Virus record (IMG/VR): IMGVR_UViG_2563366951_000006
From: a virus
Taxonomy: Duplodnaviria > Heunggongvirae > Uroviricota > Caudoviricetes
DNA length: 47,886 nucleotides
Strand: one strand, 5' to 3'
Every line of letters starts with the position of its first letter. Positions within the stretch are counted from its first letter, which is position 1. Under the pieces are notes generated by a model. The model did no database searches. It was not told the origin of the DNA and was given only the letters and a program-made list of their open reading frames with translations. Position numbers and translations under genes: made by a program. Below are positions 1-47,886 of this stretch, piece by piece.

Positions 1-483
1 ATGACGAAGAAAAAAGCACATAAACCTGGTTCAGCGACCATCGCGCTTAACAAGCGCGCCCGTCACGAATACTTTATCGAAGAAGAGTTCGAAGCGGGAC
101 TTGCCCTGCAAGGCTGGGAAGTTAAATCCCTGCGCGCAGGAAAAGCCAATATCAGCGACAGCTATGTCCTTCTGCGTGACGGAGAAGCGTTCCTGTTTGG
201 CGCAAACATCACGCCAATGGCAGTGGCCTCCACGCATGTGGTGTGCGATCCTACCCGTACCCGCAAGTTACTTCTCAACCAGCGCGAACTGGACTCATTG
301 TACGGTCGCGTCAATCGAGAAGGCTATACCGTAGTGGCGCTCTCCCTGTACTGGAAAAATGCCTGGTGCAAAGTGAAAATCGGCGTCGCCAAAGGTAAGA
401 AACAGCACGATAAACGTTCAGATATCAAAGAGCGCGAATGGCAGGTGGATAAAGCGCGTATCATGAAAAACGCCCACCGTTAA
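1..483 (+). CDS. smpB: SsrA-binding protein SmpB (trans-translation)
   Basis: 160-aa ORF recognised over full length as enterobacterial SmpB ([25 protein letters not shown]...); sits directly upstream of the tmRNA gene. Confidence 0.96.
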
Positions 484-697
484 ACCTGCACTCCAATTAT
501 TGACCAGTTCCTCACCGCGCCTCCCTCTCCGGCGGCGCGAATGAACATCTTATTGGCTATCACATCCGACACAAATGTTGCCATCCCATTGCTTAATCGA
601 ATAAAAATCAGGCTACATGGGTGCTAAATCTTTAACGATAACGCCATTGAGGCTGGTCATGGCGCTCATAAATCTGGTATACTTACCTTTACACATT

Positions 698-1060
698 GGG
701 GCTGATTCTGGATTCGACGGGATTTGCGAAACCCAAGGTGCATGCCGAGGGGCGGTTGGCCTCGTAAAAAGCCGCAAAAAATAGTCGCAAACGACGAAAA
801 CTACGCTTTAGCAGCTTAATAACCTGCTTAGAGCCCTCTCTCCCTAGCCTCCGCTCTTAGGACGGGGATCAAGAGAGGTCAAACCCAAAAGAGATCGCGT
901 GGAAGCCCTGCCTGGGGTTGAAGCGTTAAAACTTAATCAGGCTAGTTTGTTAGTGGCGTGTCCGTCCGCAGCTGGCAAGCGAATGTAAAGACTGACTAAG
1001 CATGTAGTACCGAGGATGTAGGAATTTCGGACGCGGGTTCAACTCCCGCCAGCTCCACCA
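698..1060 (+). ncRNA. ssrA: tmRNA (SsrA), 363 nt
   Basis: Starts GGGGCTGATTCTGGATTCGACGGG; internal tag-peptide frame ANDENYALAA-stop at about 787..819; tRNA-like 3' end GGGTTCAACTCCCGCCAGCTCCACCA. Confidence 0.95.
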
Positions 1061-1065
1061 CTTTT
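1026..1065. repeat. attL core: 40-bp direct repeat (1 mismatch) of the ssrA 3' end
   Basis: ttcggacGcgggttcaactcccgccagctccaccactttt at 1026..1065 recurs at 42485..42524 with a single mismatch. Confidence 0.85.
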
Positions 1066-1182
1066 GATAGGACTGCAACCGGACAGTGGCAATAAAAACA
1101 GCCACTTACGGACACTAACCAGACAGCATGCAGACCGAGAAAAGACAAAAATATGCACGTGAAATGCACGTGCACTTTAAAA

Positions 1183-1212
1183 GAACCCCAGATTTCACGG
1201 TCTGGGTTTTTT
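1183..1212 (+). terminator. Rho-independent terminator-like hairpin downstream of ssrA
   Basis: cccaga-loop-tctggg stem followed by a T6 tract. Confidence 0.5.
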
Positions 1213-1331
1213 CTATTTGTAACTAAGGGTAACAAATTCCCCTCCCCCTTTCGCGTCCCGCTCGCCTTGACACTGTTTATTTTTACAGTAAAAATACTGT
1301 ATGCAATCACAGTGGTTTTCCGGAGGCATTT

Positions 1332-1571
1332 ATGTTCGTTGAACTGGTTTATGACAAACGCAATGTAGAGGGGCTTGAAGGGGCCAGAGAAATTATTCTG
1401 GCCGAGCTGACGAAGCGGGTGCACCAGATTTTCCCTGATGCCGAGGTGAAAGTGAAGCCGATGCAGGCAAACGGCCTGAATAGCGATGCCAGTAAAAGCG
1501 ATCGGGAAAAGCTGAACCGCATGCTGGAGGAGATGTTTGAAGAGTCGGATCATTGGTTAAACAATATTTAA
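1332..1571 (+). CDS. DinI-like protein
   Basis: 79-aa ORF with the DinI-family pattern (EL..R....FPD.E..V, C-terminal acidic segment ending DHW). Confidence 0.65.
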   Translation: MFVELVYDKRNVEGLEGAREIILAELTKRVHQIFPDAEVKVKPMQANGLNSDASKSDREKLNRMLEEMFEESDHWLNNI

Positions 1572-1665
1572 ATTCAATCTGTTAACGGCTAAGGAATATT
1601 TTTAGGAATATTTTGTTGTCATTTTTGTTGTTGATGGTACTCTTATCATTATCATCAATAACAGA

Positions 1666-2286
1666 GTGCGAGTTATGTCCCTTATCTCTAAAGAAGAAGC
1701 ATTGCTGGAACTTGAACCCTATTTCCCTCTGTTGCGAAAAGCTGTACATGCTGCATGGAACTCTTGGGTTACGGGTCCAATAGCACCTCGCATGCAGCAC
1801 AAGCGCGTCCGTGCAAATCTCGTATGGAATGATTATTTTTTCGAGATGATAAAAGAACTTTCAACAGGTGAACACAAAGGCATTAGGTTTGCAAAAATAC
1901 CTTATAATCAAGGGTTTGCAGTTAATGACAGATTCTTCATTAAGTTTAAAAAGGCAGACTCCAACTTCCTTTCCTCCAACCTTCAGACTCAATCAGCTAT
2001 GAAATATCATGACCCAGAGATTGATATGTTTGGCGGAGAAGTTCGCTTAGAGTTGCTGTATGTTTTAGACGATGATGGGATCAACATTGACAAAATTGCA
2101 ATTGTTCAAAGAAAAGACAAATTTGTCGCTTGGGCAATAGATATTGAAGGCGATAATGTTGCTGAAATTCCTCATACATTTGAACCAAGCACAACCGAGA
2201 CAGCTAAAACTGTCGCGAAAAAAGTTATCAAACCTCGCAAACATGCAAAAGAAAACGTGGTAAACAAAGATGGCACAAATTCCTGA
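1666..2286 (+). CDS. Hypothetical protein (206 aa), upstream partner of the HTH-ImmA gene
   Basis: AT-rich ORF; alternative ATG at 1675; 3' end overlaps the next ORF by 17 bp, suggesting translational coupling; no family recognised. Confidence 0.55.
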   Translation: MRVMSLISKEEALLELEPYFPLLRKAVHAAWNSWVTGPIAPRMQHKRVRANLVWNDYFFEMIKELSTGEHKGIRFAKIPYNQGFAVNDRFFIKFKKADSNFLSSNLQTQSAMKYHDPEIDMFGGEVRLELLYVLDDDGINIDKIAIVQRKDKFVAWAIDIEGDNVAEIPHTFEPSTTETAKTVAKKVIKPRKHAKENVVNKDGTNS

Positions 2287-3355
2287 ATCTCTCTCTTTGA
2301 TTAGAAATGAGATGATCGAGCTTCGCCGCAGAATGCTTGGAATCAGCCAAAAAGTTTTATCAGAAAAAGTGGGAATGTCCCAAGGAACCCTTTCGAAGAT
2401 AGAACAGGGACTTAAAGCTGTAACACCAGAACAAGCTCAGAAACTTTCTGAGGCATTATCATGCCCACTAAGTTTTTTTACGATGTCAGAACGCTTATAC
2501 GGTGGGCCAATCAGCGCGGCTCCAATGTATAGAAAAAAAGCATCTGTGGGTATAAAGGTTTTAGATCGCCTCATAGCAGAGATTAATGTACGAATAGCTC
2601 ACATTAGAAAACTTCTTCAGTTCGTTGATTTTGAACCAGAGTTTGAATTACCTTCATATGATCCTGACGACTACAACGGTGATGCGACTGAAATTGCAAG
2701 AAATACGCGAAAAAGTTGGTATATGCCCGCAGGTCCGGTGAAAAACTTGATCGAGGTTCTTGAAAGAGCTGGATGCTTAATAATCGAGTGTGACATGGAT
2801 GACACTGGCTTATCTGGGGTTAGCTACAACCTTCCAGGATTACCACCGATTATTTTCATCAACAGAAATCAGCCCCTTGACAGATATCGTTTTACACTAG
2901 CGCACGAGCTTGGCCATTTAGTCATGCATAAATCGCCCAATCCAAACATGGAGAGCGAAGCTGATGCTTTCGCAGCAGAATTTTTAATGCCTGCACGTGA
3001 CATATCTCCCTATCTTCGTGATATGAGCATTGAAAAAGCTGCAACCTTGAAGCCTTACTGGAGAACCTCAATGGCCTCCGTAATTTTCAGAGCCAAAACT
3101 TTAGGATATTTAAATCAGGGACAAAATGAATATATCTGGCGTCAGATGTCTGCACGCGGATACAGACTCAATGAACCAGTACAATTATCTCCTGATAATG
3201 AAAAGCCAACATTGTTAAAAGAGATATTTGAACACGTCAAACAAGAGCTTGATTATGACGAAAGCGAATTATCGCAAGTATTCTCAATACATTATGATGA
3301 AATAGAACAACTTTACCCTATTAACAAAAAAACTGGCTTAAGATTAGTTAAATAG
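2270..3355 (+). CDS. XRE-family HTH fused to ImmA/IrrE-type zinc metallopeptidase (COG2856-like)
   Basis: N-terminal HTH (ISQKVLSEKVGMSQGTLSKIEQG); C-terminal HEXXH motif (LAHELGHLVMH) with downstream EADAFAAEFLMP. Confidence 0.8.
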   Translation: MAQIPESLSLIRNEMIELRRRMLGISQKVLSEKVGMSQGTLSKIEQGLKAVTPEQAQKLSEALSCPLSFFTMSERLYGGPISAAPMYRKKASVGIKVLDRLIAEINVRIAHIRKLLQFVDFEPEFELPSYDPDDYNGDATEIARNTRKSWYMPAGPVKNLIEVLERAGCLIIECDMDDTGLSGVSYNLPGLPPIIFINRNQPLDRYRFTLAHELGHLVMHKSPNPNMESEADAFAAEFLMPARDISPYLRDMSIEKAATLKPYWRTSMASVIFRAKTLGYLNQGQNEYIWRQMSARGYRLNEPVQLSPDNEKPTLLKEIFEHVKQELDYDESELSQVFSIHYDEIEQLYPINKKTGLRLVK

Positions 3356-3357
3356 AA

Positions 3358-3386
3358 CCAACCCGGCCACCGCGCCGGGTTTACTT
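3358..3386. terminator. Bidirectional terminator hairpin between convergent genes
   Basis: cccggc-caccgc-gccggg stem-loop followed by a T-rich run. Confidence 0.5.
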
Positions 3387-3389
3387 TGA

Positions 3390-3695
3390 TTATTTTTCCG
3401 GCATGTTAAGCATTTGACGCAATTTTTTATTAACTTCTTTCTTCCGTCGAGTAAACGCCTCCTCAGCATCAGCCTTTCGTTCCTTGTCTCTTAGCTTGGT
3501 CGGCTCAACTTCCACTGCTAACAAAGCAGCCTGACAATCTTCTTTCGTAAACAGATAGGGTGATTTTGGCCTGTCGCTTACCCGGTAGGCTTTGAGCCTG
3601 CCTTCAAGAACCCATTTAGTCACTGTGGCCGTCGAGATACCCAGCAATTCAGCAACTTCCTTTCTCGTCATTGTAAGTCTATCCATATCATTCAA
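3390..3695 (-). CDS. Excisionase/AlpA-type HTH DNA-binding protein
   Basis: LTMTRKEVAELLGISTATVTKWVLEGRLKAYRV matches the excisionase-family HTH pattern; basic C-terminal tail. Confidence 0.65.
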   Translation of the reverse strand: MNDMDRLTMTRKEVAELLGISTATVTKWVLEGRLKAYRVSDRPKSPYLFTKEDCQAALLAVEVEPTKLRDKERKADAEEAFTRRKKEVNKKLRQMLNMPEK

Positions 3696-3737
3696 CCTAA
3701 ATCACGCCCTACGATTAAGCCTTATTGACTCAAAACG

Positions 3738-4118
3738 TTATACCCCTTTAGATTTCCATGTTTTTATCTCAAACAAAACAGCGCAATCTCCTTCGTCATT
3801 CCAAACTGCAGAATTTACCCCCCAAAAAAGAGTAAACCTTTTCCCACCCTTGTTTCTGTCCGGTATTATATTTTTACCTGGCCGCGTATATAAAATAATT
3901 TCATCACCTTTTTTAGCATCATAAGAAGGCATCCAATAAGAATGCCTTAGCTTTGACGAAATATAACCATCATCTGTATAAGTTGTGTCCTGGAGCAGGT
4001 AATATTGCAATTTGCAATCTTCAATCACGTCCAAAACCACAAACTCTTCTTTCGCATCCCCATGATTATGGATACTTCTTATGCTTACTTTCATATTAAC
4101 ACCTCGCTTTTTAATCAA
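3738..4118 (-). CDS. Hypothetical protein (126 aa)
   Basis: AT-rich ORF upstream of and co-directional with the AlpA-like gene; no recognisable motif. Confidence 0.45.
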   Translation of the reverse strand: MIKKRGVNMKVSIRSIHNHGDAKEEFVVLDVIEDCKLQYYLLQDTTYTDDGYISSKLRHSYWMPSYDAKKGDEIILYTRPGKNIIPDRNKGGKRFTLFWGVNSAVWNDEGDCAVLFEIKTWKSKGV

Positions 4119-4173
4119 TCTTAGAGAGGTATTAGCTCTGAAACAACAAGGTTTTACGTGACTGTGGTCACGA

Positions 4174-4740
4174 CTAGGTAGTTTTATTAGCTGGAAACTT
4201 CTTATAAAGAGTGCATACCGCTACATCATAAATAATTGCCACCTGCTTCCTGTTCATGCCATTCGCAATCAGTCGGCCCGCCTGGTCCCATTGTTCTTGA
4301 GTAAGCTTCGGACGCCTGCCGCCTATCCGCCCTTTCTCCCGAGCTGCAGCCAGGCCTGCCCGGGTGCGCTCAACAATCAACTCTCTTTCCATTTCCGCCA
4401 GTGCTGACATGATGTGAAATATAAAACGCCCCATTGGGCTGGAAGTGTCGATGCTGTCAGTAAGGCTCTTGAAGTGAATGCCACGTTGTCGGAGTTCGTC
4501 CACCAGCAATACCAGGTTCCTCATGCTTCGCCCGAGGCGATCCAGCTTCCAAACAACCAGCGTATCCCCCTCCTTCAGCGTTCGCAGAAGCTTTTTAAGC
4601 GCTGGCCGGTTCGCTACCGTCCCGCTCATTTTTTCCTCAAAAACCTGTTCACATCCTGCGCGTTCGAGAGCTTGCCGCTGAAGATCAGTATTTTGGTCAT
4701 TTGTTGACACCCTTACATAGCCAATTTGCATATTTTTCAC
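4174..4740 (-). CDS. Serine DNA invertase, Gin/Pin/Hin/Cin family
   Basis: MQIGYVRVSTNDQNTDLQRQAL...VWKLDRLGRSM...YDVAVCTLYKK is near-collinear with Mu Gin; catalytic Ser in the VRVSTNDQ motif. Confidence 0.92.
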   Translation of the reverse strand: MKNMQIGYVRVSTNDQNTDLQRQALERAGCEQVFEEKMSGTVANRPALKKLLRTLKEGDTLVVWKLDRLGRSMRNLVLLVDELRQRGIHFKSLTDSIDTSSPMGRFIFHIMSALAEMERELIVERTRAGLAAAREKGRIGGRRPKLTQEQWDQAGRLIANGMNRKQVAIIYDVAVCTLYKKFPANKTT

Positions 4741-4797
4741 CCAATAAATTCTGCAAAAAAATCAGGTGAAGTTATCGGCCAGGCCGCTCAAGAGCAA

Positions 4798-4821
4798 TCT
4801 ATAAAACGTCGGTTTAGGAAG
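4798..4821. other. gix/hix-like recombination site (left boundary of invertible segment)
   Basis: tctataaaacgtcggtttaggaag; inverted copy of the site at 6347..6370; resembles Mu gix TTCCTGTAAACCGAGGTTTTGGATAA. Confidence 0.6.
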
Positions 4822-4861
4822 CAGCGCCACGAAGGACGTCGGAACGGCGGCCGGAAACGTC

Positions 4862-5602
4862 ATGCAAGTGGGAGCATTTGGGCTTGGAACTATCAACGGA
4901 GACGGCCCACTGTTGGACGCTATGGACGCATTTACACCGACCTGTTTCTCCTCCCATCAAAATGACGGGATGACCCAGCTTGGGTTAACTGCAAATACCG
5001 GTATTACGTCTATAGTCGTCAATCGGGGCAGCCGACCAACCCGTATTCATCAGGCCTACATTCTAAGGCGGACGTGGTTTTCGTATTACGGTGGTTCGTC
5101 CTGGTCATATCAGGAGGCTTACACCACGGGCAATACCACAAAGTCCAGCGATGGTACCCTGAAGGCTGCGTCTCCGGTTGCGCGCATAGTGACGAGTCGG
5201 GATGCATGCCAGCGCGCTGACGTAGCCGAAGATGGTTTCTCCTGGTGCGGCTGTGGGACAGCAAACGCAGAGGCGGAGGGCATAACCCTTTCTCGCCTTG
5301 AGGCGGGCGTTTACCTGCTGACAGGTGCAGCAGGACTGGCTTCAGAGGGATGGCAGCTACTGCCACCGATGGACCCTGGTGGAATGGGAGAACTTGGCGT
5401 GGTTGAAGCTGAGCAGACGGAAAGCGGAGGCCTGACAATCCGTCTTTTCAAGCAAAAATACATCCTGAGCGGTGAAGGTGAGATCATTAAAACCAAAGGT
5501 GAACCGATGGACGTGCCGGCGAACAGTTGGATCGATGTTCGCCTGGATATGCCATCTGATTCTCTGTTTAACCAGCGGATGAATCAGGAACTTCAGCCAT
5601 AG
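4862..5602 (+). CDS. Tail-fibre variable C-terminal cassette A (inside invertible segment, currently opposite to the tail operon)
   Basis: Frame is open from the gix site (NVGLGSSATKDVG...); shares motifs with cassette B (SDGTLKAASPV, DMPSDS.FNQR). Confidence 0.55.
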   Translation: MQVGAFGLGTINGDGPLLDAMDAFTPTCFSSHQNDGMTQLGLTANTGITSIVVNRGSRPTRIHQAYILRRTWFSYYGGSSWSYQEAYTTGNTTKSSDGTLKAASPVARIVTSRDACQRADVAEDGFSWCGCGTANAEAEGITLSRLEAGVYLLTGAAGLASEGWQLLPPMDPGGMGELGVVEAEQTESGGLTIRLFKQKYILSGEGEIIKTKGEPMDVPANSWIDVRLDMPSDSLFNQRMNQELQP

Positions 5603-6221
5603 CCTTGCGCTGATTCCAGATACTGTCCTGCGGCATCTGAACACGTACAGAGACAAATTGGTCAGAAGGGATGTCTATCGGCTCGCCATCGCTGACACCC
5701 TGTAGCTCGTTCCTGGCGAACTCTGGTGCTTCAGGATGTGTGCGGTGAAAGGTTTTCACTAACACCGATCCGTCAGCATGAACCTCATAATCCAGCCATA
5801 TCAGAGGCTGCTTGTTGCGGTCGGTGGGAATATCAAAACCGCCATCAATGCCGCCCCAGGCAGCGTCAGAGTTAAGCCCTTCACATCCTTCAATCAGATA
5901 TTCACCGATGGTCAGACGGGTTACGGTGCAGCCTTCAGATTCGTCATTAGTCTGGTATGCGCCATCTGTAAACACTTTGACCACAGGCGATGCTGCTTTA
6001 ATGCTGCCATCTGATGCAACTGTAGTGTTTGCAGTCGTGTATACCTTTTTCCAAGTGTATTGGCCTCCTTGATTGTGAGTAGTCTGAATATATGCTTTTC
6101 CATCATTAGACCAAACGAACCATGAAAAAGATGGGGCACCATCATACTGCAACTGCAGCCCGACTCCTCCACCTCCGGGGGAGTTGATCGTTGATGTTGT
6201 ATACCTACCAAATCCAAGCAC
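5568..6221 (-). CDS. Tail-fibre variable C-terminal cassette B (inside invertible segment, co-directional with the tail operon)
   Basis: GTG start at 6221; same frame stays open upstream through the gix site to 6371 (KVGLGDAATRGV...); homologous to cassette A. Confidence 0.55.
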   Translation of the reverse strand: MLGFGRYTTSTINSPGGGGVGLQLQYDGAPSFSWFVWSNDGKAYIQTTHNQGGQYTWKKVYTTANTTVASDGSIKAASPVVKVFTDGAYQTNDESEGCTVTRLTIGEYLIEGCEGLNSDAAWGGIDGGFDIPTDRNKQPLIWLDYEVHADGSVLVKTFHRTHPEAPEFARNELQGVSDGEPIDIPSDQFVSVRVQMPQDSIWNQRKAMAEVPDSSAG

Positions 6222-6346
6222 ACTCGTATCTGAAAAGTTTTCAATATGTCGCGGATTTCCCAGTCCAATAGCTCCTACAGTAGGGAGAGTATTGTGGCCA
6301 ATGCCCGGAGAGATTTTATCGCTGGTTACTCCCCTTGTGGCCGCAT

Positions 6347-6370
6347 CTCCTAAACCGACCTTTAAAATAT
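6347..6370. other. gix/hix-like recombination site (right boundary of invertible segment)
   Basis: ctcctaaaccgacctttaaaatat; shares cctaaaccgac with the reverse complement of the site at 4798..4821. Confidence 0.6.
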
Positions 6371-6410
6371 TTCACGATCCGATATGCTAGGCCGGTTCCT
6401 CTTCTGCATT

Positions 6411-7547
6411 TCACCCTTTGCTATTGTTTAAATTTTCTCCACTGCTCATTTCGTCGATTTGGAGTTTCAACCCTTTTACAGCAGCAATCAGATAGCCGAT
6501 CAGCCCCATATAATCGGCAACAAGATAATCTGTTGCTTCATCATGAATAACCAGGTCGGGAATCACTAAATCGAGATCTTGCGCAAGCGCGCCAGCGGTT
6601 AATCTCTTTGAATCTGCATTCTTATAGCGGAACGTGTAACCATCAAGCGCGGCTATCTTTTCCAGAGCCTCCGCAGGCTCGATAATGTTCACTTCCTCTT
6701 TCGCGTTCCAGTCTGACGTTAGAGTAACGCCGTTCGCCTGAACTGCACCCTTCGCGTTTATCGTCCCGTTACGAGTGTTTATGAACACCGCAGGTTTCCC
6801 GGCAACCACGCCATTTACTGGCTTGTTGTATGCAGTACAGAAGCCGATTCCGTACCAACTGACAATGTTGATGTTGGACATTGCTTCGAATGAGGCTGTG
6901 TCAGTACCTGCTTCAATAGCCCCGAACCCTCCAATTGCTACCCCGGATGATGTATCACTTGCCGCTGCAGGGATACGGATAGCAGCCGATGCAAACAAAG
7001 ATTCCCCATTCACCATGAATCCACTGACAATGACATTATTTGAATCCTGAGTAGCCAAGCTTCCTAAACCGAGGTTTTTGCGAGCGTCTTCTGCCTTCGT
7101 TGCCCCGGTCCCGCCGTCAGCGATTGCAAGCGCACCATTGCTCCCTTTCTGCGCAAGTTTACCGATGCCTGGGATGGTTACGGCGGTGCCGTTGATGGTA
7201 ACTGTGATGCTTTGGTTTGCTGAGGTGGTGGCGAACGTCTCCCACGCGCCAATATTCTCGTCATATTCTTTGATGAGCTGCGACATTGCCTGGGCCAGTC
7301 CGTCGACGGAGATAATGTCTGACACCAGAATGGCGTATTTCTGGCCGCTCAGCGCCGGAGAAGCTGCAGGCGTAATCGTCATTGACGTGGCGCTATTCAC
7401 GGATGAAATCTGGAACATCTGAACCGGGTTAGACATGACAATAATCGTCTGGCCAGCGCGAACCTGGCTGGCCGGTGCAGTCCAGTTTGTACCGGAGCCG
7501 GTTGCGGTATTTCCGTTAATAGAGATAGTTCCGGTGCTATAAATCAT
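6411..7547 (-). CDS. Tail fibre protein with C-terminal intramolecular chaperone (peptidase S74-like) domain
   Basis: C-terminus SDWNAKEEVNIIEPAEALEKIAALDGYTFRYKN...YMGLIGYLIAAVKGL matches the auto-cleaving chaperone domain of phage fibres; RBS aggag upstream. Confidence 0.8.
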   Translation of the reverse strand: MIYSTGTISINGNTATGSGTNWTAPASQVRAGQTIIVMSNPVQMFQISSVNSATSMTITPAASPALSGQKYAILVSDIISVDGLAQAMSQLIKEYDENIGAWETFATTSANQSITVTINGTAVTIPGIGKLAQKGSNGALAIADGGTGATKAEDARKNLGLGSLATQDSNNVIVSGFMVNGESLFASAAIRIPAAASDTSSGVAIGGFGAIEAGTDTASFEAMSNINIVSWYGIGFCTAYNKPVNGVVAGKPAVFINTRNGTINAKGAVQANGVTLTSDWNAKEEVNIIEPAEALEKIAALDGYTFRYKNADSKRLTAGALAQDLDLVIPDLVIHDEATDYLVADYMGLIGYLIAAVKGLKLQIDEMSSGENLNNSKG

Positions 7548-30778: not shown

Positions 30779-30853
<75 letters not shown>

Positions 30854-30856
30854 ATA

Positions 30857-30932
<76 letters not shown>

Positions 30933-30934
30933 AG

Positions 30935-31008
30935 TGGTCCGCCACCGGAGCCTCGAACCCCGTACCACAACACCTGGGTTGCCGCTCTTCCCGATGAGCT
31001 AGTGGCGG
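30935..31008 (-). tRNA. tRNA-like gene with non-canonical anticodon arm (anticodon unassigned)
   Basis: Perfect acceptor (CCGCCAC/GTGGCGG), D and T arms; best anticodon-arm fold is GCAAC/GTTGT around a 6-nt loop CCAGGT. Confidence 0.5.
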
Positions 31009-31010
31009 TC

Positions 31011-31087
31011 TGGTGGCCCTTGCTGGACTTGAACCAGCGACCGGGCGATTATGAGTCGCACGCTCTAACCAACTGAGCTAAAGGGCC
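31011..31087 (-). tRNA. tRNA with CAT anticodon, Ile2-like (lysidine) or Met
   Basis: Manual fold: anticodon loop CTCATAA; resembles enterobacterial ileX as I recall it. Confidence 0.75.
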
Positions 31088-36863: not shown

Positions 36864-37553
36864 ATGGACATAAAAAGCATACGCAAATCAAACCTTGAGC
36901 AGCTCATTGTTGAGTTCCTGAAGCGCGACAGACATACGACAAAAGCAGCTTTCGCAGAATTGTGCGGGATAAGCCCTGCCCAGTTGAGCCAGTTGCTTGG
37001 GGGCAATAGCCATCGAAACATAGGGGACAAAATGGCCAGAAAGATTGAACAGGCCTTGGATCGTCCGTTTGGGTGGCTGGATAGTCCACACAATGCTCCT
37101 GGCAGTATTAAAAGCGAGTTGGAGTATGTCGGATCAGTCCGTCCGGGAGCTGTACCAGTTGTAGGGGAAGCGATTCTTGGGATTGACGGAATGATCGATA
37201 TGCTAGAGATCCACGCTGGATGGCTACAAATATACAGCGCGGATAGGGATGCCTATGGGCTGAAAGTGAAGGGAGACAGCATGTGGCCACGCATACAGTC
37301 TGGAGAATATGTCGTCATAGAGCCAAACACCCAAGTTCATACAGGTGATGAGGTTTTTGTGCGAACAAAAGATGGGCATAACATGATAAAAATCATGAGT
37401 AAAACTCGCGATGGCGATTATCAATTCTCAAGTGTAAACAGTGATCACAGGCCCATCACCTTAAGTCCTGATAGCATCGAGAAAATGCATTTTGTTTCAG
37501 CTATTGTTAAGCATACGCGTTATGTTGACAATGATGAAATGCCCGCCCTGTAA
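36864..37553 (+). CDS. cI: Prophage repressor, CI-like (HTH + S24 LexA-type peptidase)
   Basis: N-terminal HTH (TKAAFAELCGISPAQLSQLL); C-terminal S24 motifs (KVKGDSMWP ... EVFVRTKDGHNMIKIM). Confidence 0.9.
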   Translation: MDIKSIRKSNLEQLIVEFLKRDRHTTKAAFAELCGISPAQLSQLLGGNSHRNIGDKMARKIEQALDRPFGWLDSPHNAPGSIKSELEYVGSVRPGAVPVVGEAILGIDGMIDMLEIHAGWLQIYSADRDAYGLKVKGDSMWPRIQSGEYVVIEPNTQVHTGDEVFVRTKDGHNMIKIMSKTRDGDYQFSSVNSDHRPITLSPDSIEKMHFVSAIVKHTRYVDNDEMPAL

Positions 37554-41034: not shown

Positions 41035-41233
41035 TTGCGTACCACTTTCAACCTACTGCCGGGACGCCGGAGAAACGGTTGAAGCCGTTAACAAACGGAT
41101 ACAAAGGGGGTTATGGAAAGAGGGTGTCCATGTATTAAAAGTCGATGGCGTTAAAGAACGCTGGATAGACTTAACGGAGGTTTCAAAGTGGGCAAGAAAG
41201 AACAAGGATCATTATCTCTCCCAAGAGGAGTAA
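41024..41233 (+). CDS. xis: Excisionase (Xis-like)
   Basis: ATG at 41024 with RBS gggagg; 69-aa basic protein overlapping the int start by 46 bp, as in lambda xis-int. Confidence 0.55.
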   Translation: MSLDCVPLSTYCRDAGETVEAVNKRIQRGLWKEGVHVLKVDGVKERWIDLTEVSKWARKNKDHYLSQEE

Positions 41234-42360
41234 CCATTCGCCAGCATAAAACTGGCGACACCCTGGTGATCACATTCACCTACAAGGGGGTTCTCTGCCG
41301 GGAGCCCCTTTCCAGAATGGAAGCAAACGCGCGCGGCGTGAAGTATGCCGAGCGCCTGCTGGGGGAGATACAGAATCAGATCGCCGGCGGCACATTCGAT
41401 TATGCGAAATACTTCCCCACCTCCAAAAAACTGGAGCTGTTCGGGGTAGTGAAGAAAACCAAAAATATTAAGTCCTACCTGGACGAGTATCTGAAAATCT
41501 GCCAGAACCGCAACCTTTCGCCGTCCACTATTGGCGGTTATGAAAAGTGCCTGTCTGCGCTATCTGCGCTGCACAAAATGCATGTATCGGAACTGACCCC
41601 TGCGGTCCTCAAAAACTGGATCGCCAGCAGAAAAACAAAGCTGAAAACAATCAGGAATAACCTCTCGTTTCTGCGCAGCGCCATAGATGAAGCGGTGACA
41701 GACGGCCTGCTGACTATCAACCCGGTAACCCTTGTCAGCGCGAGTCGGTACCACGTGATCGACAGCAGCCCGAATAGTGACGATTACGAAGTTGATCCGT
41801 TCACACCAGCGGAAATCAGCGCCATTTACCAGAGCTGCAGTTATCCGGAATGGGAAAACCTGTTCCGTTTCGCATTCAATACAGGTTTACGCAGCTCTGA
41901 GCTGTGTGCGTTGCGCTGGCCTGATCTCGACAATATCGCTAAAACAGCTCACGTTCAGGCGGCGAGTGTTGTTGGCGTTCTGAAAGGCACCAAAACAAAA
42001 GCCGGTACCCGTAAAGTAGAATTAAACAGCGAGGCGCTGGCCGCGCTGCAGGCGCAGAAACAATTCACTTTCATGAAAAGCGAGTTTATTTTCAGCGACC
42101 CTAAAACGGGAGAGCCCTGGGCGAACGCCGACGCAATACGAAAAAAAGCATGGGTGCCAACCCTCAAAAAAGCTGGCGTTCGATACCGTAACCCGTACCA
42201 GACCCGCCACACATTCGCCACCAGACACATTAGCCAGGGCGTAAACCTTTTCTGGCTTGCCGGGCAGATGGGGCATAAAGGGCCGGAAATGCTGTTCCGC
42301 AATTACGGTAAATACCTGGCTGAATACGACGGGAAAACCGCCATTTCAGCAGCTCTGTAG
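41188..42360 (+). CDS. int: Tyrosine integrase (prophage)
   Basis: 390 aa; C-terminal catalytic region with RHTFATRHISQG...HKGPEMLFRNYGKY (R-H-R-Y signature); adjacent to attR. Confidence 0.9.
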   Translation: MGKKEQGSLSLPRGVTIRQHKTGDTLVITFTYKGVLCREPLSRMEANARGVKYAERLLGEIQNQIAGGTFDYAKYFPTSKKLELFGVVKKTKNIKSYLDEYLKICQNRNLSPSTIGGYEKCLSALSALHKMHVSELTPAVLKNWIASRKTKLKTIRNNLSFLRSAIDEAVTDGLLTINPVTLVSASRYHVIDSSPNSDDYEVDPFTPAEISAIYQSCSYPEWENLFRFAFNTGLRSSELCALRWPDLDNIAKTAHVQAASVVGVLKGTKTKAGTRKVELNSEALAALQAQKQFTFMKSEFIFSDPKTGEPWANADAIRKKAWVPTLKKAGVRYRNPYQTRHTFATRHISQGVNLFWLAGQMGHKGPEMLFRNYGKYLAEYDGKTAISAAL

Positions 42361-42484: not shown

Positions 42485-42524
42485 TTCGGACACGGGTTCA
42501 ACTCCCGCCAGCTCCACCACTTTT
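42485..42524. repeat. attR core: second copy of the ssrA 3'-end repeat
   Basis: ttcggacAcgggttcaactcccgccagctccaccactttt. Confidence 0.85.
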
Positions 42525-42556
42525 TAGTTGTTTGAAGTACAATGAAGTCTACTAAG

Positions 42557-42594
42557 CCCGCATGGAATCAGCCTTGCGGGCTTTTTTACGTCTA
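42557..42594 (+). terminator. Terminator-like hairpin after the att core
   Basis: aagcccgca-loop-tgcgggctt stem followed by a T-rich run. Confidence 0.5.
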
Positions 42595-42684
42595 TTGTCG
42601 TCCAGTGAGAATTGCTGAGAACTATCACATATGGCACCCTGAATGGGACCCACTAAGAAGGGTCCAAAAACCGAGGGTCCCAAA

Positions 42685-43914
42685 ATGGCAAAAATCGCTA
42701 AGAAGCTCACTGACACTGAAATCAAAAGCACCAAACCAGCCGACAAAGAAATCAACTTGTTTGACGGAGATGGTTTGATACTACGAATCGCTCCCCTCTC
42801 GAAAGGAGGAAAGAAGAATTGGTATTTCAGGTATGCAGTGCCAGTGAGTAAAAAAAGAACCAAAATGAGCCTTGGGACCTATCCTCACCTTACACTGGCA
42901 AGAGCCAGAGCCTTACGAGATGAATACCTTTCCTTGCTTGCTAATGGCATTGATCCCCAAGTTCATAACAACGATAAAGCTAATGCCTTAAAGAATGCTA
43001 CTGAACACACTCTCCAAGCCGTGGCAAGGAAATGGTTGGATGAGAAGGTAAAGACCTCTGGTATCTCACAAGACCATGCAGAAGACATCTGGCGAAGCTT
43101 GGAGAGAAATATATTTCCCGGCTTGGGTAAGGTTCCTATCAATGAGATCCGACCCAAACTCTTAAAGCAACATCTCGACCCTATTGAGCAACGAGGAGTC
43201 CTCGAAACCTTACGGCGAATCATTTCCCGATTAAATGAAATATTTCGCTGGGCCGCGACTGAAGAACTTATCGAGTTCAATCCGGCTGACAACCTTGGGC
43301 AACGGTTCAGTAAGCCTAAAAAACAGAATATGCCAGCATTACCCCCTTCCGAGTTACCCCGCTTCCTAATGGTGTTAAACAATGCCTCAGTTCGTATGGA
43401 GACAAGATTGCTGATTGAATGGCAATTGCTGACCTGGGTTCGTCCAGGGGAAGCCGTTCGTGCGAGATGGGCCGATATAGATACTGAAAAATCGATGTGG
43501 AACATCCCGGCTGAGTTTATGAAAATGAAGAAGCCTCACAAAGTTCCACTAAGCAAAGAAGCTTTGCGAGTCTTGGATTCAATGAAAGCCATCAGTGGGC
43601 ACAGAGAGTGGGTTTTCCCCAGTATCAAAGCTCCACTCAATCATATGCATGAACAAACAGCGAATGCGGCCATAATCCGTATGGGCTTTGGTGGAGAGCT
43701 TGTAGCCCATGGAATGAGATCTATTGCACGAACGGCCTCAGAGGAGTCGGGTAAGTTCAGGACAGATGTCTTAGAAGCGGCCCTTGCTCACTCGAAGAAA
43801 GATGAAATAATTGCCGCATATAATCGCGCAGATTATCTTGCAGAACGAGTGGTTCTCATGCAGTGGTGGAGTGATTATGTGCAAGCTCAAAGGCTAAAAG
43901 CCATTGCAGCTTAA
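42685..43914 (+). CDS. P4-type (CP4-57 IntA-like) tyrosine integrase
   Basis: N-terminus KLTDTEIKSTKPADKEINLFDGDGLILRI typical of P4-family integrases; start taken at internal ATG (track ORF from 42643). Confidence 0.88.
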   Translation: MAKIAKKLTDTEIKSTKPADKEINLFDGDGLILRIAPLSKGGKKNWYFRYAVPVSKKRTKMSLGTYPHLTLARARALRDEYLSLLANGIDPQVHNNDKANALKNATEHTLQAVARKWLDEKVKTSGISQDHAEDIWRSLERNIFPGLGKVPINEIRPKLLKQHLDPIEQRGVLETLRRIISRLNEIFRWAATEELIEFNPADNLGQRFSKPKKQNMPALPPSELPRFLMVLNNASVRMETRLLIEWQLLTWVRPGEAVRARWADIDTEKSMWNIPAEFMKMKKPHKVPLSKEALRVLDSMKAISGHREWVFPSIKAPLNHMHEQTANAAIIRMGFGGELVAHGMRSIARTASEESGKFRTDVLEAALAHSKKDEIIAAYNRADYLAERVVLMQWWSDYVQAQRLKAIAA

Positions 43915-44238
43915 TAATTAAAAAACACATAATAAACAAAGGTAATTACTAGGATTGCATCTCTATTTTCAACGAACAACTTAGAACCATACACCCAGCA
44001 TTAACCAATTAAAGCCCTGTTTTAGCTTCTGAGATTAAGCAATAGCTGGTCAAATAATTTCAGAAGCTTTTTTTTTGATCCAAACCAAACAACACTACTT
44101 AACTCATTGTATATATTGTTTTTTTATGTTAGCAATAAATACAATGTACAGCATACATGCATATGTTGGGGCGGTAGCATTTAAATGTACAATTCTCATC
44201 CGTAAAGTTCACACAGCATTTATGAATAAGGTTGGTCT

Positions 44239-47200: not shown

Positions 47201-47886
47201 TTACAGAAGATTTTCAATCAGTACTTAACTTAAAAGAGGAATCTCACCTCACAAATACACCAGCACTGGTATGGATTAGTCAACCAGATGTACAAAAAAC
47301 TAAAGGTAACAGAGCAGGAGAGCATACACCAATCTGGTCAAACGAAAGTGAATGTAAGGCAATCATAGATATTCTCAAAGATTTGGACAAGAACTCCAAC
47401 CCAACAAAAAAAATAAAGTTGGCAATTCTTTCTCCATACTCAAATCAAGTTAAATTAATTTCAAAGCATATTGAAATTGAAAAGAAAAAAAATCAATTCA
47501 AAACACTTTTAAATAATTACATTCCACCAGATGATAATGATGGTTATTGCCTTACTGTTGATTCGTTCCAAGGTGGCGAAGCTGATATTGTCTTAATTTC
47601 ATTAGTACGAAACAATGGTAAAAGCACAATTAAGAGTGCATTAGGATTTTTATCAGATCAACGCCGTATAAATGTTTTACTTAGTAGAGCAAAGTACAAA
47701 TTGATCATAGTCGGTTCATATGAACTCCTCAAGGCTTGGTCTAATCGTATATCCAGAGAGAACTCAAAAGAATATGATTTTATTCCAAGACTAACTGATA
47801 AACTGGATTTGTCTTTAAATGAGAGAAAGCTTTCATTAATTACATCAAACTTTATAACAAACAAAGGAAATAAAAATGAAAAATAA
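44239..47886 (+). CDS. Kinase-like N-terminal domain fused to Upf1-like SF1 helicase (1215 aa); candidate defence protein, MkoA-like
   Basis: Kinase-like motifs YIIKHW, HRHLDENSIL, LTGFEW; helicase motifs LVQGPPGVGKTH, IMEESGK, LMIGDHNQLPP, VDSFQGGEADIVLISLVRNN, RRINVLLSRAKYKLIIVG; very AT-rich. Confidence 0.85.
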   Translation: MSENKLFDNYEIIERNLLKTESNRNIPEVILTLKDGESYIIKHWPRNTSSDEQVLESIWQHELRQLQRLKGYPGVGDYIVNPVESKKTNEGYYLVLNSDGRVPTSYLLNKRTLSLPRKSHWLTRLKDPAVRIRFWKNICRITNAIGLLHAQGLLHRHLDENSILTYDYESDDYNDFQLTGFEWSIRMPTLTRAKIEPVGEHGKISTFATDWIDLGILIANFLKIDINEIKSLQFPAEYFISKYDLTISEVAIIRSLLGIQPIQQNAIKELLGEKDILQFLDGIIDELTEFYKKTKTIHGLAINTKYEQSDNTKDKKELFHCIQKIIFEKSEFTISRDDSDIIKSFVSEDLSDSPVLFVNTSEHNRYDVVLKGKELFYVLTPFQPDHRTSDKTWDLGYSQYAYLELPNRFFGKDNYIELNSNNISCYTHYEARKFLNSNDNSLSLLSWEMIFKDIGKTKNKRNEEHLRLLEGLTAVHITNIAYAKAEIFPVENISEESEPDNISSWIFKFIPKFDETTEELSKSLSIDSPSVRLEKIINSSENNDKVSWSLVDNNDFSRVDEEILLEFYGYETDQDNQEIYSFISKKPLPEWRNFYIVPDSIEGTLRQITRHANTLDMLENHIELMNVITSPNSNLTVSNEDIIAKDIMDSLDESKQRVFTKVLSTLPMNLVQGPPGVGKTHLVKAISKFIFKEEPNSRILFTAQSHATVQHLYHEVVKDLLTENKHTNDPIIIRCNKISGEDNIILNSADETGLEYLRKFVESPLYKNSSNQSLKSNISSLLKAPPVKRYPLINQLIKSASLIFATTNSDYVERMIKERAQFDWSIMEESGKVTGIELISPLLLSYRRLMIGDHNQLPPYRSIELRNILTNNTKLKNTFEEVDSISNFKLKNELMRNSHFSSITDDQAREIGLRAAKYVNLFESLIIDDERQDVMYEKIKGKDYKRNNKLSSMLSVQHRMHPHIAEVISNVFYNNKLVTDKDKERKYLTEDFQSVLNLKEESHLTNTPALVWISQPDVQKTKGNRAGEHTPIWSNESECKAIIDILKDLDKNSNPTKKIKLAILSPYSNQVKLISKHIEIEKKKNQFKTLLNNYIPPDDNDGYCLTVDSFQGGEADIVLISLVRNNGKSTIKSALGFLSDQRRINVLLSRAKYKLIIVGSYELLKAWSNRISRENSKEYDFIPRLTDKLDLSLNERKLSLITSNFITNKGNKNEK

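What the first reader, a model, noticed from the sequence alone, without database searches (positions are those of the whole stretch)
1666..3355. Two-gene AT-rich module at the prophage edge: unknown 206-aa protein translationally coupled to an HTH-ImmA metallopeptidase fusion
The 206-aa ORF overlaps the start of a 361-aa protein that combines an XRE-type HTH with an ImmA/IrrE HEXXH peptidase domain. HTH plus ImmA-type peptidase proteins act as signal-cleavable regulators of mobile elements and of several defence operons, and COG2856-type fusions have been proposed as antitoxin-like partners. The upstream protein has no motif I recognise, so it is a candidate effector or toxin. The module is AT-rich relative to the prophage backbone, sits between attL and the tail-fibre genes where morons accumulate, and ends at a bidirectional terminator.
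Basis: partly seen in the sequence, partly recalled or inferred. Interest (0 to 1): 0.7.

Follow-up and report, generated by a model that had tools for sequence, protein, structure and literature searches.

The report
RosmerTA-like toxin–antitoxin cassette, unlisted toxin family
A prophage carries a self-contained two-gene cassette built like the known RosmerTA anti-phage toxin–antitoxin system: its regulator/antitoxin half is a clear family member, but the presumed toxin belongs to a large, unnamed protein family with no recognisable fold.

Summary
Two overlapping genes sit at window 1675-2286 and 2270-3355. The true start of the first is probably ATG 1675, giving 203 aa rather than 206. They lie at the ssrA-proximal end of a lambdoid prophage, in its most AT-rich stretch, and end at a two-way hairpin.

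The 361-aa protein (A) is an XRE HTH fused to an M78/ImmA peptidase with an intact HEXXH. It matches the RmrA antitoxin of RosmerTA (PADLOC E 3e-54).

The 203-aa protein (T) matches no Pfam, NCBIfam, PADLOC or PDB entry. A confident model of it has no significant fold match. T is nevertheless not an orphan: a profile finds about 1,100 clusters.

In every locus read where the sequence continues downstream of T (the window and 21 other distinct pairs), T sits directly upstream of an A homologue. These loci span Alpha-, Beta- and Gammaproteobacteria and actinophages. They lie in prophages, plasmids, conjugative elements and defence islands.

A tandem GGAATA-N6-GGAATA repeat next to the −35 is conserved across these loci. 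It is probably A's operator.

Best reading: a RosmerTA-type abortive-infection or addiction cassette whose toxin family current RmrT models do not cover. Toxicity, defence and mechanism were not tested. This is a new variant of a known kind, of moderate interest.

The parts
1593..1614 (+). Tandem direct repeat GGAATATTTT x2 (period 12; GGAATA cores at 1593-1598 and 1605-1610). Presumed operator for the HTH of the A protein.
   Evidence: GGAATA-N6-7-GGAATA occurs once in the 47.9-kb window (0.01 expected). It occurs once, on the + strand, about 60-90 nt upstream of the T start (−82 to −65 in 9 loci and the window) in 17 of 35 fetched loci, and nowhere else in them. The GAATA cores are invariant in a 13-locus alignment whose flanks are otherwise unalignable. 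That A binds here is inferred.
1616..1643 (+). Predicted sigma-70 promoter of the cassette: −35 TTGTCA (1616-1621), 16-nt spacer, TGn-extended −10 TACTCT (1638-1643).
   Evidence: Read from the sequence. The −35 and −10 positions align with better −10 hexamers (TACTAT, TAATAT, TATGAT) at the same place in other loci. The simple consensus scan did not call it, so it is a prediction.
1675..2286 (+). T gene: 203-aa soluble protein of an unnamed family, the presumed toxin or effector. The longest ORF starts at GTG 1666 (206 aa).
   Evidence: ORF. Start set by homologue alignment. No Pfam, NCBIfam, PADLOC or PDB sequence hit. About 1,087 clusters at 50% identity match the profile. AF2 core pLDDT >90 for residues 1-160, with residues 162-203 disordered. 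No significant fold match. No TM segment.
2270..2286 (+). 17-nt overlap between the T stop region and the A start (translational coupling).
   Evidence: An overlap or a gap of at most 9 nt is kept in all 21 non-redundant complete pairs.
2270..3355 (+). A gene: 361-aa RmrA-type protein (XRE HTH + linker + M78/ImmA Zn-peptidase + C-terminal domain). Presumed antitoxin and autoregulator.
   Evidence: Pfam HTH_3 and Peptidase_M78. PADLOC RmrA E 2.9e-54, nearly full length. phrog_2439 E 1.8e-82. NCBIfam spr1629 antitoxin family E 2.6e-32, below its cutoff.
2309..2488 (+). HTH domain of A (residues ~14-73).
   Evidence: Conserved Q27, S42, E45 and G47.
2762..3094 (+). M78/ImmA peptidase domain of A (residues ~165-275). 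HEXXH is at 2903-2917 (H212, E213, H216); the likely third ligand is E228.
   Evidence: HE..H is present in every complete A homologue. H212, E213, H216 and E228 are invariant in a 13-sequence alignment down to 23% identity.
3360..3381 (.). GC-rich hairpin scoring as an intrinsic terminator on both strands. It ends the cassette and the convergent gene 3390-3695.
1035..1060 (+). Context: 3' end of ssrA, the att core at this end of the prophage. The second copy is at 42494-42519.

Best explanation
The cassette is a RosmerTA-type toxin-antitoxin / abortive-infection module carried as cargo (a moron) by a lambdoid prophage integrated at ssrA.

Shown by computation:
- Two overlapping genes are transcribed from their own promoter.
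- The downstream protein A is an RmrA-family fusion of an XRE HTH with a catalytically intact M78/ImmA zinc peptidase.
- The upstream protein T is a soluble ~160-residue alpha/beta domain plus a disordered tail. It belongs to a large family always found immediately upstream of its own A partner.
- A tandem GGAATA repeat abutting the −35 is conserved with the pair.

Inferred:
- A binds the tandem repeat through its HTH and autoregulates the operon.
- A also keeps T harmless, by direct binding and/or by peptidase action on T, possibly with help from ClpXP as in other RosmerTA-like pairs.
- A phage-derived or stress cue stops neutralisation. This could work through inactivation or self-cleavage of A at the conserved PM(Y/F)RKKAS segment just after the HTH, by analogy with ImmA/ImmR, IrrE/DdrO and CapP/CapH.
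- Free T then arrests the cell before the phage completes its cycle.
- T has no membrane segment. Its invariant residues are mostly basic and aromatic (R44, R46, K92, K93, R146, W28, W153), plus one acidic position (E/D126). I therefore expect a cytoplasmic target such as a nucleic acid or nucleotide, not the membrane pore reported for the Kita RmrT.
For: - A is RmrA-like: 14 PADLOC RmrA models, best E 2.9e-54 over residues 14-352, and Pfam HTH_3 + Peptidase_M78.
- RosmerTA is defined as a Zn-peptidase antitoxin plus a toxin of unknown function, and the rmrA deletion could not be transformed.
- RmrA pairs with diverse RmrT toxins, 58% toxin first.
- Obligate pairing: in every locus whose sequence continues downstream of T, an A homologue follows it, overlapping or within 9 nt. 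There are 21 non-redundant pairs down to 23% T identity.
- T and A divergences track each other (r = 0.95), so there is no partner swapping within the family.
- Catalytic HEXXH and E228 are invariant.
- Contexts are mobile and defence-rich. They include Gabija + AbiE, pPIWI-RE + AbiE, a type IIG RM on a conjugative element, a reverse transcriptase locus, and retron Ec78 in E. coli selC islands. Others are a Proteus prophage late region, an Acinetobacter phage, Rhizobium and Polaromonas plasmids, and Gordonia phages next to the integrase.
- The operator is conserved from Enterobacteriaceae to Burkholderiales.
- The prophage has its own CI-type HTH+S24 repressor and its own integrase elsewhere, so A is not the phage's immunity repressor.
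- The slot is variable cargo in related prophages.
- In other RosmerTA-like pairs the antitoxin is essential, and ClpX/ClpP becomes essential because of the toxin.
Against: - No experiment exists for this T family. Toxicity, neutralisation and phage protection are all inferred.
- T matches none of PADLOC's RmrT models (0 of 85 diverse members), although those models do detect the partners of other RmrA homologues.
- Profile-profile comparison with a Tritos-type RmrT family finds nothing. Homology of T to validated toxins is therefore not established.
- A is more conserved than T in 20 of 21 pairs. This is the reverse of many classical type II systems.
- The operator lies upstream of and abutting the −35. 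That position is also compatible with activation rather than repression.
- T lacks any recognisable catalytic motif. The Foldseek hits to PD-(D/E)xK nucleases are insignificant (best E 0.064, prob 0.47), and the canonical D...(D/E)xK residues are absent.
Confidence: 0.6

Rival explanations
1. It is a pure addiction or stabilisation toxin-antitoxin module. T is toxic and A neutralises it, but the pair only stabilises the mobile element that carries it and has no anti-phage role.
For: The pair is always on mobile elements: prophages, plasmids, ICEs and integrase-flanked islands. RosmerTA-like pairs were first noticed through essentiality effects, not defence.
Against: About five of roughly twelve independent contexts place the pair directly beside known defence systems. 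In phages it occupies moron slots. Validated RosmerTA systems do defend.
Confidence: 0.15
2. It is a regulatory switch rather than a toxin system. A is a fused ImmR/ImmA-like, signal-cleavable repressor controlling element or host genes. T is a sensor, co-factor or anti-repressor that modulates A and has no harmful activity of its own.
For: M78 peptidases with HTH partners are best understood as signal-cleaved regulators: ImmA/ImmR, and CapP/CapH and IrrE as the nearest solved structures. A is the more conserved partner. A deeply conserved operator exists. T has no catalytic motif.
Against: The only conserved neighbour of A is T, and the only copy of the operator motif in each locus read is in front of T, so no regulated cargo is apparent. 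Flanking genes differ in every context. The prophage has its own CI repressor, integrase and Q antiterminator.
Confidence: 0.15
3. The polarity is reversed. The peptidase of A is the harmful or effector activity, and T is its inhibitor or specificity factor.
For: In unfused COG2856/Xre pairs the metalloprotease has been treated as the toxin, as in Brucella ZnMP/HTH-Xre (title and abstract of PMC10538038). The catalytic residues of A are strictly conserved.
Against: In tested RosmerTA systems the peptidase gene is the one that cannot be deleted, and the partner is the toxic one. Gene order and overlap fit the toxin-first RosmerTA pattern.
Confidence: 0.07
4. T is a spurious or decaying ORF, and only the HTH-peptidase gene is real.
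For: T has no database annotation, and its region is AT-rich.
Against: About 1,087 profile-matching clusters exist, nearly all of the 150 listed being ~190-230 aa single-domain proteins. There are invariant residues across 85 sequences, a confident AF2 core, and conserved synteny and overlap with A.
Confidence: 0.01

Closest known systems
RosmerTA (RmrT/RmrA) anti-phage toxin-antitoxin systems (Millman et al. 2022, bioRxiv 10.1101/2022.05.11.491447; PADLOC RmrA/RmrT models)
   Same: It is a two-gene, co-oriented module. The antitoxin has an N-terminal XRE HTH plus an M78/ImmA Zn-peptidase of ~360-400 aa, and A matches 14 RmrA models. The toxin is ~200 aa with no known domain and lies upstream, overlapping. 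Carriage is on phages and defence islands.
   Different: T matches none of the PADLOC RmrT models. Profile-profile comparison shows no relation to a canonical RmrT family. A matches RmrA models more weakly (E 1e-54) than a canonical RmrA does (phage Tritos, E 5e-102). PADLOC's RmrT models therefore do not detect the toxin half. No experimental data exist for this family.
Gordonia phage Kita RmrT(D5)/RmrA(D25) (Ernits et al. 2023, PMC10440598)
   Same: It is a phage-borne RmrA-type antitoxin with a toxin of no detectable similarity to other families. Toxicity and narrow anti-phage defence were shown there.
   Different: The Kita toxin has a predicted membrane-associated C-terminal region and depolarises the membrane. 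T here has no hydrophobic segment. Other Gordonia phages (Shlim410/Howe gp34) do carry a distant T-family member (hhalign prob 97.6%), but Kita did not appear among its relatives.
E. coli E101 prophage pair E101_02645/02644 (Rousset et al., bioRxiv 10.1101/2020.05.25.114553) and S. pneumoniae spr1630/spr1629 (Piotrowski et al. 2009, cited in PMC13566846)
   Same: Each has a domain-less protein upstream of its partner protein (spr1629 names the NCBIfam repressor/antitoxin family that A matches). The E. coli pair is prophage-borne. The toxin makes ClpP (E. coli) or ClpX (pneumococcus) essential.
   Different: I could not obtain those sequences, so whether either toxin belongs to the T family is untested. 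A scores far below the cutoff of the NCBIfam spr1629 antitoxin family (112 vs 335 bits).
ImmR/ImmA (ICEBs1), DdrO/IrrE (Deinococcus) and CapH/CapP (CBASS) signal-cleaved repressor/protease pairs
   Same: They share the same HTH and M78 peptidase domains. The A profile hits CapP (7t5t, E 1e-13), the ICEBs1 Xre regulator (7t8i) and IrrE (3dte). They offer a plausible analogy for signal-triggered cleavage after the HTH.
   Different: Here the HTH and peptidase are one polypeptide. The conserved partner is a third, unrelated protein, and no controlled integrase or CBASS operon is attached.

Membership tests
RosmerTA | Antitoxin RmrA: XRE HTH fused to an M78/ImmA Zn-peptidase with HEXXH, matching RmrA profiles | tested here: met
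   PADLOC RmrA, 14 models, best E 2.9e-54 over residues 14-352. Pfam HTH_3 + Peptidase_M78. HEXXH and E228 invariant.
RosmerTA | Two adjacent co-oriented genes forming one operon | tested here: met
   17-nt overlap. The overlap or a gap of at most 9 nt is conserved in 21 pairs. One promoter/operator lies upstream and one terminator downstream.
RosmerTA | Toxin matches an RmrT profile | tested here: not met
   No PADLOC hit for T or for 85 diverse family members. Positive control: RmrT models hit the partners of RmrA homologues in phage Tritos and a Zymomonas plasmid (E down to 2e-86). hhalign of the T profile against the Tritos-type RmrT profile gives prob 0.1%. Current DefenseFinder models could not be consulted.
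RosmerTA | Toxin inhibits growth and is neutralised by RmrA | not testable with these tools
   Needs expression experiments.
RosmerTA | Protects against phage infection | not testable with these tools
   Support is by association only: neighbours include Gabija, AbiE, pPIWI-RE, retron Ec78 and type IIG RM.
ImmR/ImmA-type element regulator | Separate HTH repressor and protease genes controlling adjacent integration/excision or immunity genes | tested here: not met
   HTH and peptidase are fused. Neighbours differ in every locus. The prophage has its own CI (HTH+S24) and integrase about 33-38 kb away.
PD-(D/E)xK nuclease (for T) | alpha-beta-beta-beta-alpha-beta core with conserved D ... (D/E)xK catalytic residues | tested here: not met
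   The order of secondary-structure elements is compatible, and weak Foldseek hits include EcoRV, DpnI, SPARDA, NucC and YqaJ. None has E < 1e-3 (best E 0.064, TM 0.32). The third strand carries R/K90-x-K92-K93 with no conserved acidic residue at the expected positions.
Membrane-depolarising RmrT (Kita D5 type) | Predicted membrane-associated or TM region | tested here: not met
   Maximum 19-residue Kyte-Doolittle hydropathy is 0.68. The tail is disordered and polar.

The most novel reading that the evidence does not exclude
The T family (about 1,100 clusters at 50% identity) would be a new protein fold with a new, non-membrane toxic activity. It would be one of the largest unrecognised toxin classes attached to RmrA-type antitoxins, and the RmrT models tested here miss it. 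Its control would also be unusual: an XRE-type HTH reading a head-to-tail tandem repeat at the −35, coupled to self-cleavage at the conserved PM(Y/F)RKKAS segment. That would give a tractable model for how RosmerTA systems sense phage.
Probability: 0.3. Interest if true: 0.65.

Novelty: new variant of a known kind. Interest (0 to 1): 0.45.

Why it matters
RosmerTA is a validated defence system, but how it senses phage is not described in the papers read here, and its toxins are described as diverse and mostly uncharacterised.

This cassette shows that PADLOC's RmrT models miss a large, widespread partner family: about 1,100 clusters, from Proteobacteria to actinophages. PADLOC detects only the A half, and the RefSeq and GenBank records read here label the pair 'hypothetical protein' plus 'XRE family' or 'helix-turn-helix' regulator.

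The family comes with three handles for experiments:
- a confident single-domain model with a short list of invariant residues;
- a strictly conserved catalytic peptidase;
- a sharply defined operator.

If T is toxic, it offers a soluble RmrT to set beside the membrane-active Kita toxin. It also offers a way to test whether ClpXP dependence and peptidase-mediated control are general to RosmerTA.

Tried and rejected
1. Sequence families for T. Pfam, NCBIfam and PADLOC gave nothing, and PHROGs gave only an unknown-function family. Scanning 85 diverse members also gave nothing meaningful.
2. Solved structures by sequence. A T profile against the PDB gave nothing relevant.
3. Fold search. No hit had E < 1e-3. 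Recurrent weak hits to PD-(D/E)xK nucleases were considered and rejected as evidence, because the catalytic residues are missing.
5. Is T a divergent canonical RmrT? By eye, 'KK..LSxNxPTQxAL' and 'GG.V..Y.L.D' in T resemble motifs in phage Tritos gp40. However, hhalign with single sequences and with a 9-sequence profile gave prob 0.1-0.2%. The homologue set for Tritos gp40 was narrow (10 proteins), so this test is weak. Gordonia phage Malibo gp35 gave a borderline local match on the same motif (prob 22.6%).
6. ADP-ribosyltransferase R-S-E and ParE-like readings of the conserved residues and topology were considered from the sequence and dropped for lack of any supporting hit.
7. The basic C-terminal tail as a general DNA-binding feature was rejected. 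Tail charge is not conserved across the family (median +1, range −7 to +6).
8. A as the prophage repressor was rejected, because a CI-type HTH+S24 repressor is present at 36864-37553.
9. Literature search for the RefSeq accessions of T/A homologues, for the E101 toxin accession and for PDB 9vzy found nothing beyond the original E101 preprint.
10. The L005/L006 case, where T is intact but A lacks the peptidase half, was examined. Homology stops exactly where a second contig ends, so it is probably an assembly or insertion breakpoint and is uninformative.
11. An Rfam scan of 1-6500 found only tmRNA.
Full report
**What is in the sequence**

The window opens with smpB (1-483) and the tmRNA gene ssrA (698-1060). 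The last 26 nt of ssrA (1035-1060) recur at 42494-42519. Between the two copies lies a lambdoid prophage. It has:
- a tyrosine integrase at 41188-42360;
- a CI-type repressor (HTH_3 + Peptidase_S24) at 36864-37553;
- a Q antiterminator, a primase-helicase, head and tail genes, and tail-fibre genes.

The host backbone is Escherichia-like. Window 1-1559 is 98.3% identical to E. coli MS 115-1.

At the ssrA-proximal end of the prophage the gene order is:
- dinI (1332-1571, +);
- the two genes of the finding (+);
- a two-way hairpin (3360-3381);
- a convergent excisionase-like HTH_17 gene (3390-3695, −);
- an unknown 126-aa ORF (3738-4118, −);
- a Hin/Gin-type invertase (4174-4740, −);
- inverted tail-fibre C-terminal cassettes.

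**Check of the observation**

The ORFs are 1666-2286 and 2270-3355, and they overlap by 17 nt. The second protein carries HTH_3 (E 1e-13) and Peptidase_M78 (E 1e-22), with HEXXH at residues 212-216. The first has no Pfam, NCBIfam or PADLOC match.

The module is 40.0% GC against 50.1% for the rest of the prophage. That is lower than any of 366 equal-size windows. The hairpin at 3360-3381 scores as a terminator on both strands.

There is one correction. All homologues start MS(L/F/T)I at the position of ATG 1675, so the product is most likely 203 aa, not 206.

**The downstream protein (A)**

A matches 14 PADLOC RmrA models nearly end to end (best E 2.9e-54, residues 14-352). RmrA is the antitoxin of the RosmerTA defence system. 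A also matches phrog_2439 (E 1.8e-82). It matches the NCBIfam 'spr1629 family repressor/antitoxin' model below its cutoff.

I aligned 13 A-type proteins, down to 23% identity. Invariant positions are H212, E213, H216 and E228, together with several HTH residues, an arginine in a conserved PM(Y/F)RKKAS segment just after the HTH, and an EP motif in the C-terminal domain. The peptidase therefore looks catalytically competent.

The nearest solved structures by profile are CapP (7t5t), an unpublished full-length HTH-peptidase protein (9vzy), the ICEBs1 Xre regulator and IrrE.

**The upstream protein (T)**

A word-indexed search found only 26 close relatives in Enterobacterales: Serratia, Xenorhabdus and Proteus, all annotated as hypothetical. 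A full HMM search with their alignment found much more. It returned 1,087 clusters (50% identity representatives) at E ≤ 1e-3 and 331 at E ≤ 1e-10. Nearly all of the 150 listed are ~190-230 aa single-domain proteins.

None of 85 diverse members hits a PADLOC model or a meaningful Pfam family. The profile hits nothing relevant in the PDB.

With an 85-sequence alignment, AlphaFold2 gives a confident core (residues 1-160, mostly pLDDT >90). The core has two long helices, three strands, a short helix and three more strands. A disordered ~40-residue tail follows.

Foldseek against PDB and BFVD gives no hit below E 1e-3. The best hits are EcoRV (E 0.064, TM 0.32) and other PD-(D/E)xK enzymes. The canonical catalytic residues are absent, so I do not accept that assignment.

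Invariant or near-invariant residues are W28, W31, R44, R46, A47, R/K90, K92, K93, N102, T105, Q106, G120, R/K124, E/D126, Y129, R146 and W153. There is no hydrophobic segment (maximum hydropathy 0.68). The charge of the tail is not conserved.

**The pair is one unit**

In every fetched locus where sequence continues downstream of T, an A homologue follows immediately. Across 21 non-redundant complete pairs:
- the genes overlap or lie within 9 nt of each other;
- HEXXH is always present;
- the identities of T and A to the window proteins correlate (r = 0.95);
- A is the more conserved partner in 20 of 21 pairs.

The family reaches Xanthomonas (32% T identity), a conjugative element (23%), a Rhizobium megaplasmid, a Polaromonas plasmid and Acinetobacter phage ABMM1. 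By profile comparison it also reaches Gordonia phages of the Howe group (hhalign prob 97.6%).

The surroundings are never the same. They include:
- Gabija plus AbiE next to an integrase;
- pPIWI-RE plus AbiE;
- a type IIG restriction enzyme beside a relaxase;
- a reverse-transcriptase locus;
- retron Ec78 with PtuAB in an E. coli selC island;
- the late-gene moron position of a Proteus prophage, between a methylase and the lysis genes.

In E. coli prophages related to this one, the slot after dinI holds other cargo or none. Strain MS 115-1 has a hemerythrin-domain gene and a second dinI there. Phage LMessi has nothing there.

The cassette itself is absent at ≥85% nucleotide identity from 5,426 complete E. 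coli genomes. Related versions of the same dinI-T-A block sit at ssrA in Enterobacter asburiae (93.5% nt) and in an Enterobacteriaceae MAG (84%).

**A conserved promoter and operator**

This was not part of the original finding. Directly upstream of T lies the tandem repeat GGAATATTTT-TA-GGAATATTTT (1593-1614). It is followed at once by TTGTCA (1616-1621), a 16-nt spacer and TGgTACTCT (−10 at 1638-1643).

The pattern GGAATA-N6-7-GGAATA occurs once in the window, where 0.01 is expected. It occurs once, on the + strand, 60-90 nt upstream of the T start in 17 of 35 fetched loci. In 9 of those loci and in the window it lies exactly at −82 to −65. It is found nowhere else in those ~350 kb.

In a 13-locus alignment from Escherichia, Proteus, Ralstonia, Pararobbsia, Variovorax and Oxalobacteraceae, the two GAATA cores are invariant while the flanks are unalignable. 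Better −10 hexamers (TACTAT, TAATAT, TATGAT) line up at the predicted position. Degenerate TTGAATA repeats are visible in the Rhizobium and Polaromonas plasmids.

The simplest reading is that this is the binding site of the conserved HTH of A. The cassette would then carry its own autoregulated promoter. Binding, and its sign, were not tested. The site abuts the −35, which fits repression by occlusion but does not exclude activation.

**Comparison with what is known**

RosmerTA was described as an antitoxin with a Zn-peptidase plus a toxin of unknown function, and its antitoxin deletion could not be obtained. The NetFlax study showed three things:
- the ImmA-type antitoxin is a hub paired with many unrelated toxins;
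- 58% of these pairs are toxin first;
- a Gordonia phage Kita pair has a membrane-depolarising toxin and gives narrow anti-phage protection.

Related pairs make ClpP (E. coli E101) or ClpX (S. pneumoniae, Pectobacteriaceae) essential.

The present cassette has the RosmerTA architecture and a bona fide RmrA-type protein. Its T is not covered by the RmrT models, although those models work: they detect the partners of RmrA homologues in phage Tritos and in a Zymomonas plasmid. They miss T and all 85 relatives. Profile-profile comparison with the Tritos-type family is negative.

By eye, T shares short motifs with Tritos gp40 and with Gordonia phage Malibo gp35 (RFKK...NxPTQxAL). Only the Malibo match reaches a borderline score (prob 22.6%). 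I leave a deep common origin of RmrT families open.

**Most likely mechanism**

I commit to a RosmerTA-type toxin-antitoxin / abortive-infection cassette (confidence 0.6).

Shown:
- the architecture, the family of A and its catalytic integrity;
- obligate pairing and co-inheritance;
- own promoter region with a conserved repeat;
- mobile and defence-rich contexts;
- independence from the prophage's own immunity genes.

Inferred:
- T is the growth-arresting effector, with a cytoplasmic target. The evidence is a soluble protein with a conserved basic and aromatic residue set.
- A represses or tunes the operon via the GGAATA repeats.
- A neutralises T by binding and/or proteolysis, perhaps together with ClpXP.
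- A phage cue abolishes neutralisation, possibly by cleavage after the HTH, as in ImmA/ImmR, IrrE/DdrO and CapP/CapH.

Rivals:
- an addiction-only TA module (0.15);
- a regulatory switch in which T is a sensor or co-factor rather than a toxin (0.15);
- reversed polarity, with the protease as the effector (0.07);
- a spurious ORF (0.01, refuted by conservation).

**Verdict**

The architecture is already known and named, which limits the surprise. Three things are new:
- a large toxin-candidate family without a recognisable fold, invisible to the annotation libraries tested here;
- its strict one-to-one linkage with a distinct RmrA subgroup;
- a sharply conserved tandem operator.

This is a new variant of a known kind, with interest 0.45.

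Noticed in passing
window 1267-1313: The dinI promoter region contains two CTGT-N8-ACAG LexA-box-like sites (1273-1288 and 1297-1312) around the predicted −35/−10 (1267-1295). No terminator-like site is predicted between dinI (stop 1571) and the T start. SOS-induced read-through into the T-A cassette is therefore possible in this prophage.
   Followed up: partly
window 3390-4118 (− strand): Convergent with the cassette are an excisionase-like HTH_17 protein (101 aa; phrog_2907 'excisionase' E 6e-24, weak MADS mad1 hit) and a 126-aa ORF with no hit in Pfam, PHROGs, NCBIfam or PADLOC. Both lie about 37 kb from the prophage integrase. The block is shared with an Enterobacteriaceae MAG (L014, 84% nt up to 4251) but is not linked to T-A elsewhere.
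   Followed up: partly
window 4174-6221: A Hin/Gin-type serine invertase (Resolvase + HTH_7) lies next to two oppositely oriented Phage_tail_C_2 cassettes (4862-5602 +, 5568-6221 −). This looks like an invertible tail-fibre host-range switch.
   Followed up: partly
window 42520-47886: Directly after the second ssrA repeat comes a second tyrosine integrase (42643-43914). It is followed by an ORF of at least 1,215 aa with AAA_11/AAA_12 (SF1 Upf1-like helicase) domains that runs off the window. This is a second, probably AT-rich island in tandem at ssrA, possibly another defence gene.
   Followed up: partly
window 30779-31087 (− strand): The prophage carries a cluster of four tRNA genes (Gly-tcc, Thr-tgt, Met-cat). 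One is called by ARAGORN with an abnormal two-base anticodon ('ag').
   Followed up: no
window 1-1559 vs 1575-3385; L013, L037: The host backbone is 98.3% identical to E. coli. The T-A cassette is missing from all 5,426 complete E. coli genomes at ≥85% identity. Its T protein is 100% identical to one in Enterobacter asburiae TN152, which points to recent inter-genus transfer of the prophage end.
   Followed up: partly
L005 6545-7510 and L006 (contig end at 7181): In one metagenomic island (pPIWI-RE + AbiE) T is intact, but homology of the A gene stops at residue 201, just before HEXXH. A second contig ends at exactly that point. This is probably an insertion or assembly breakpoint.
   Followed up: partly
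L033 1878-2492 (phage Tritos gp40); L036 1319-1990 (Gordonia phage Malibo gp35): Toxin-position proteins of other RmrA pairs share short motifs with T (K-x-x-x-x-L-S-x-N-x-P-x-Q-A-L; G-G-x-V...Y-x-L-x-D). Statistical support is absent for Tritos and borderline for Malibo. This hints that several ~200-aa RmrT families may share a fold.
   Followed up: partly
PDB 9vzy (hit of the A-family profile): A 393-residue 'HTH cro/C1-type domain-containing protein' matching the A profile across the HTH and most of the peptidase region (positions 12-280) has a solved structure. No paper citing it was found in the library.
   Followed up: no
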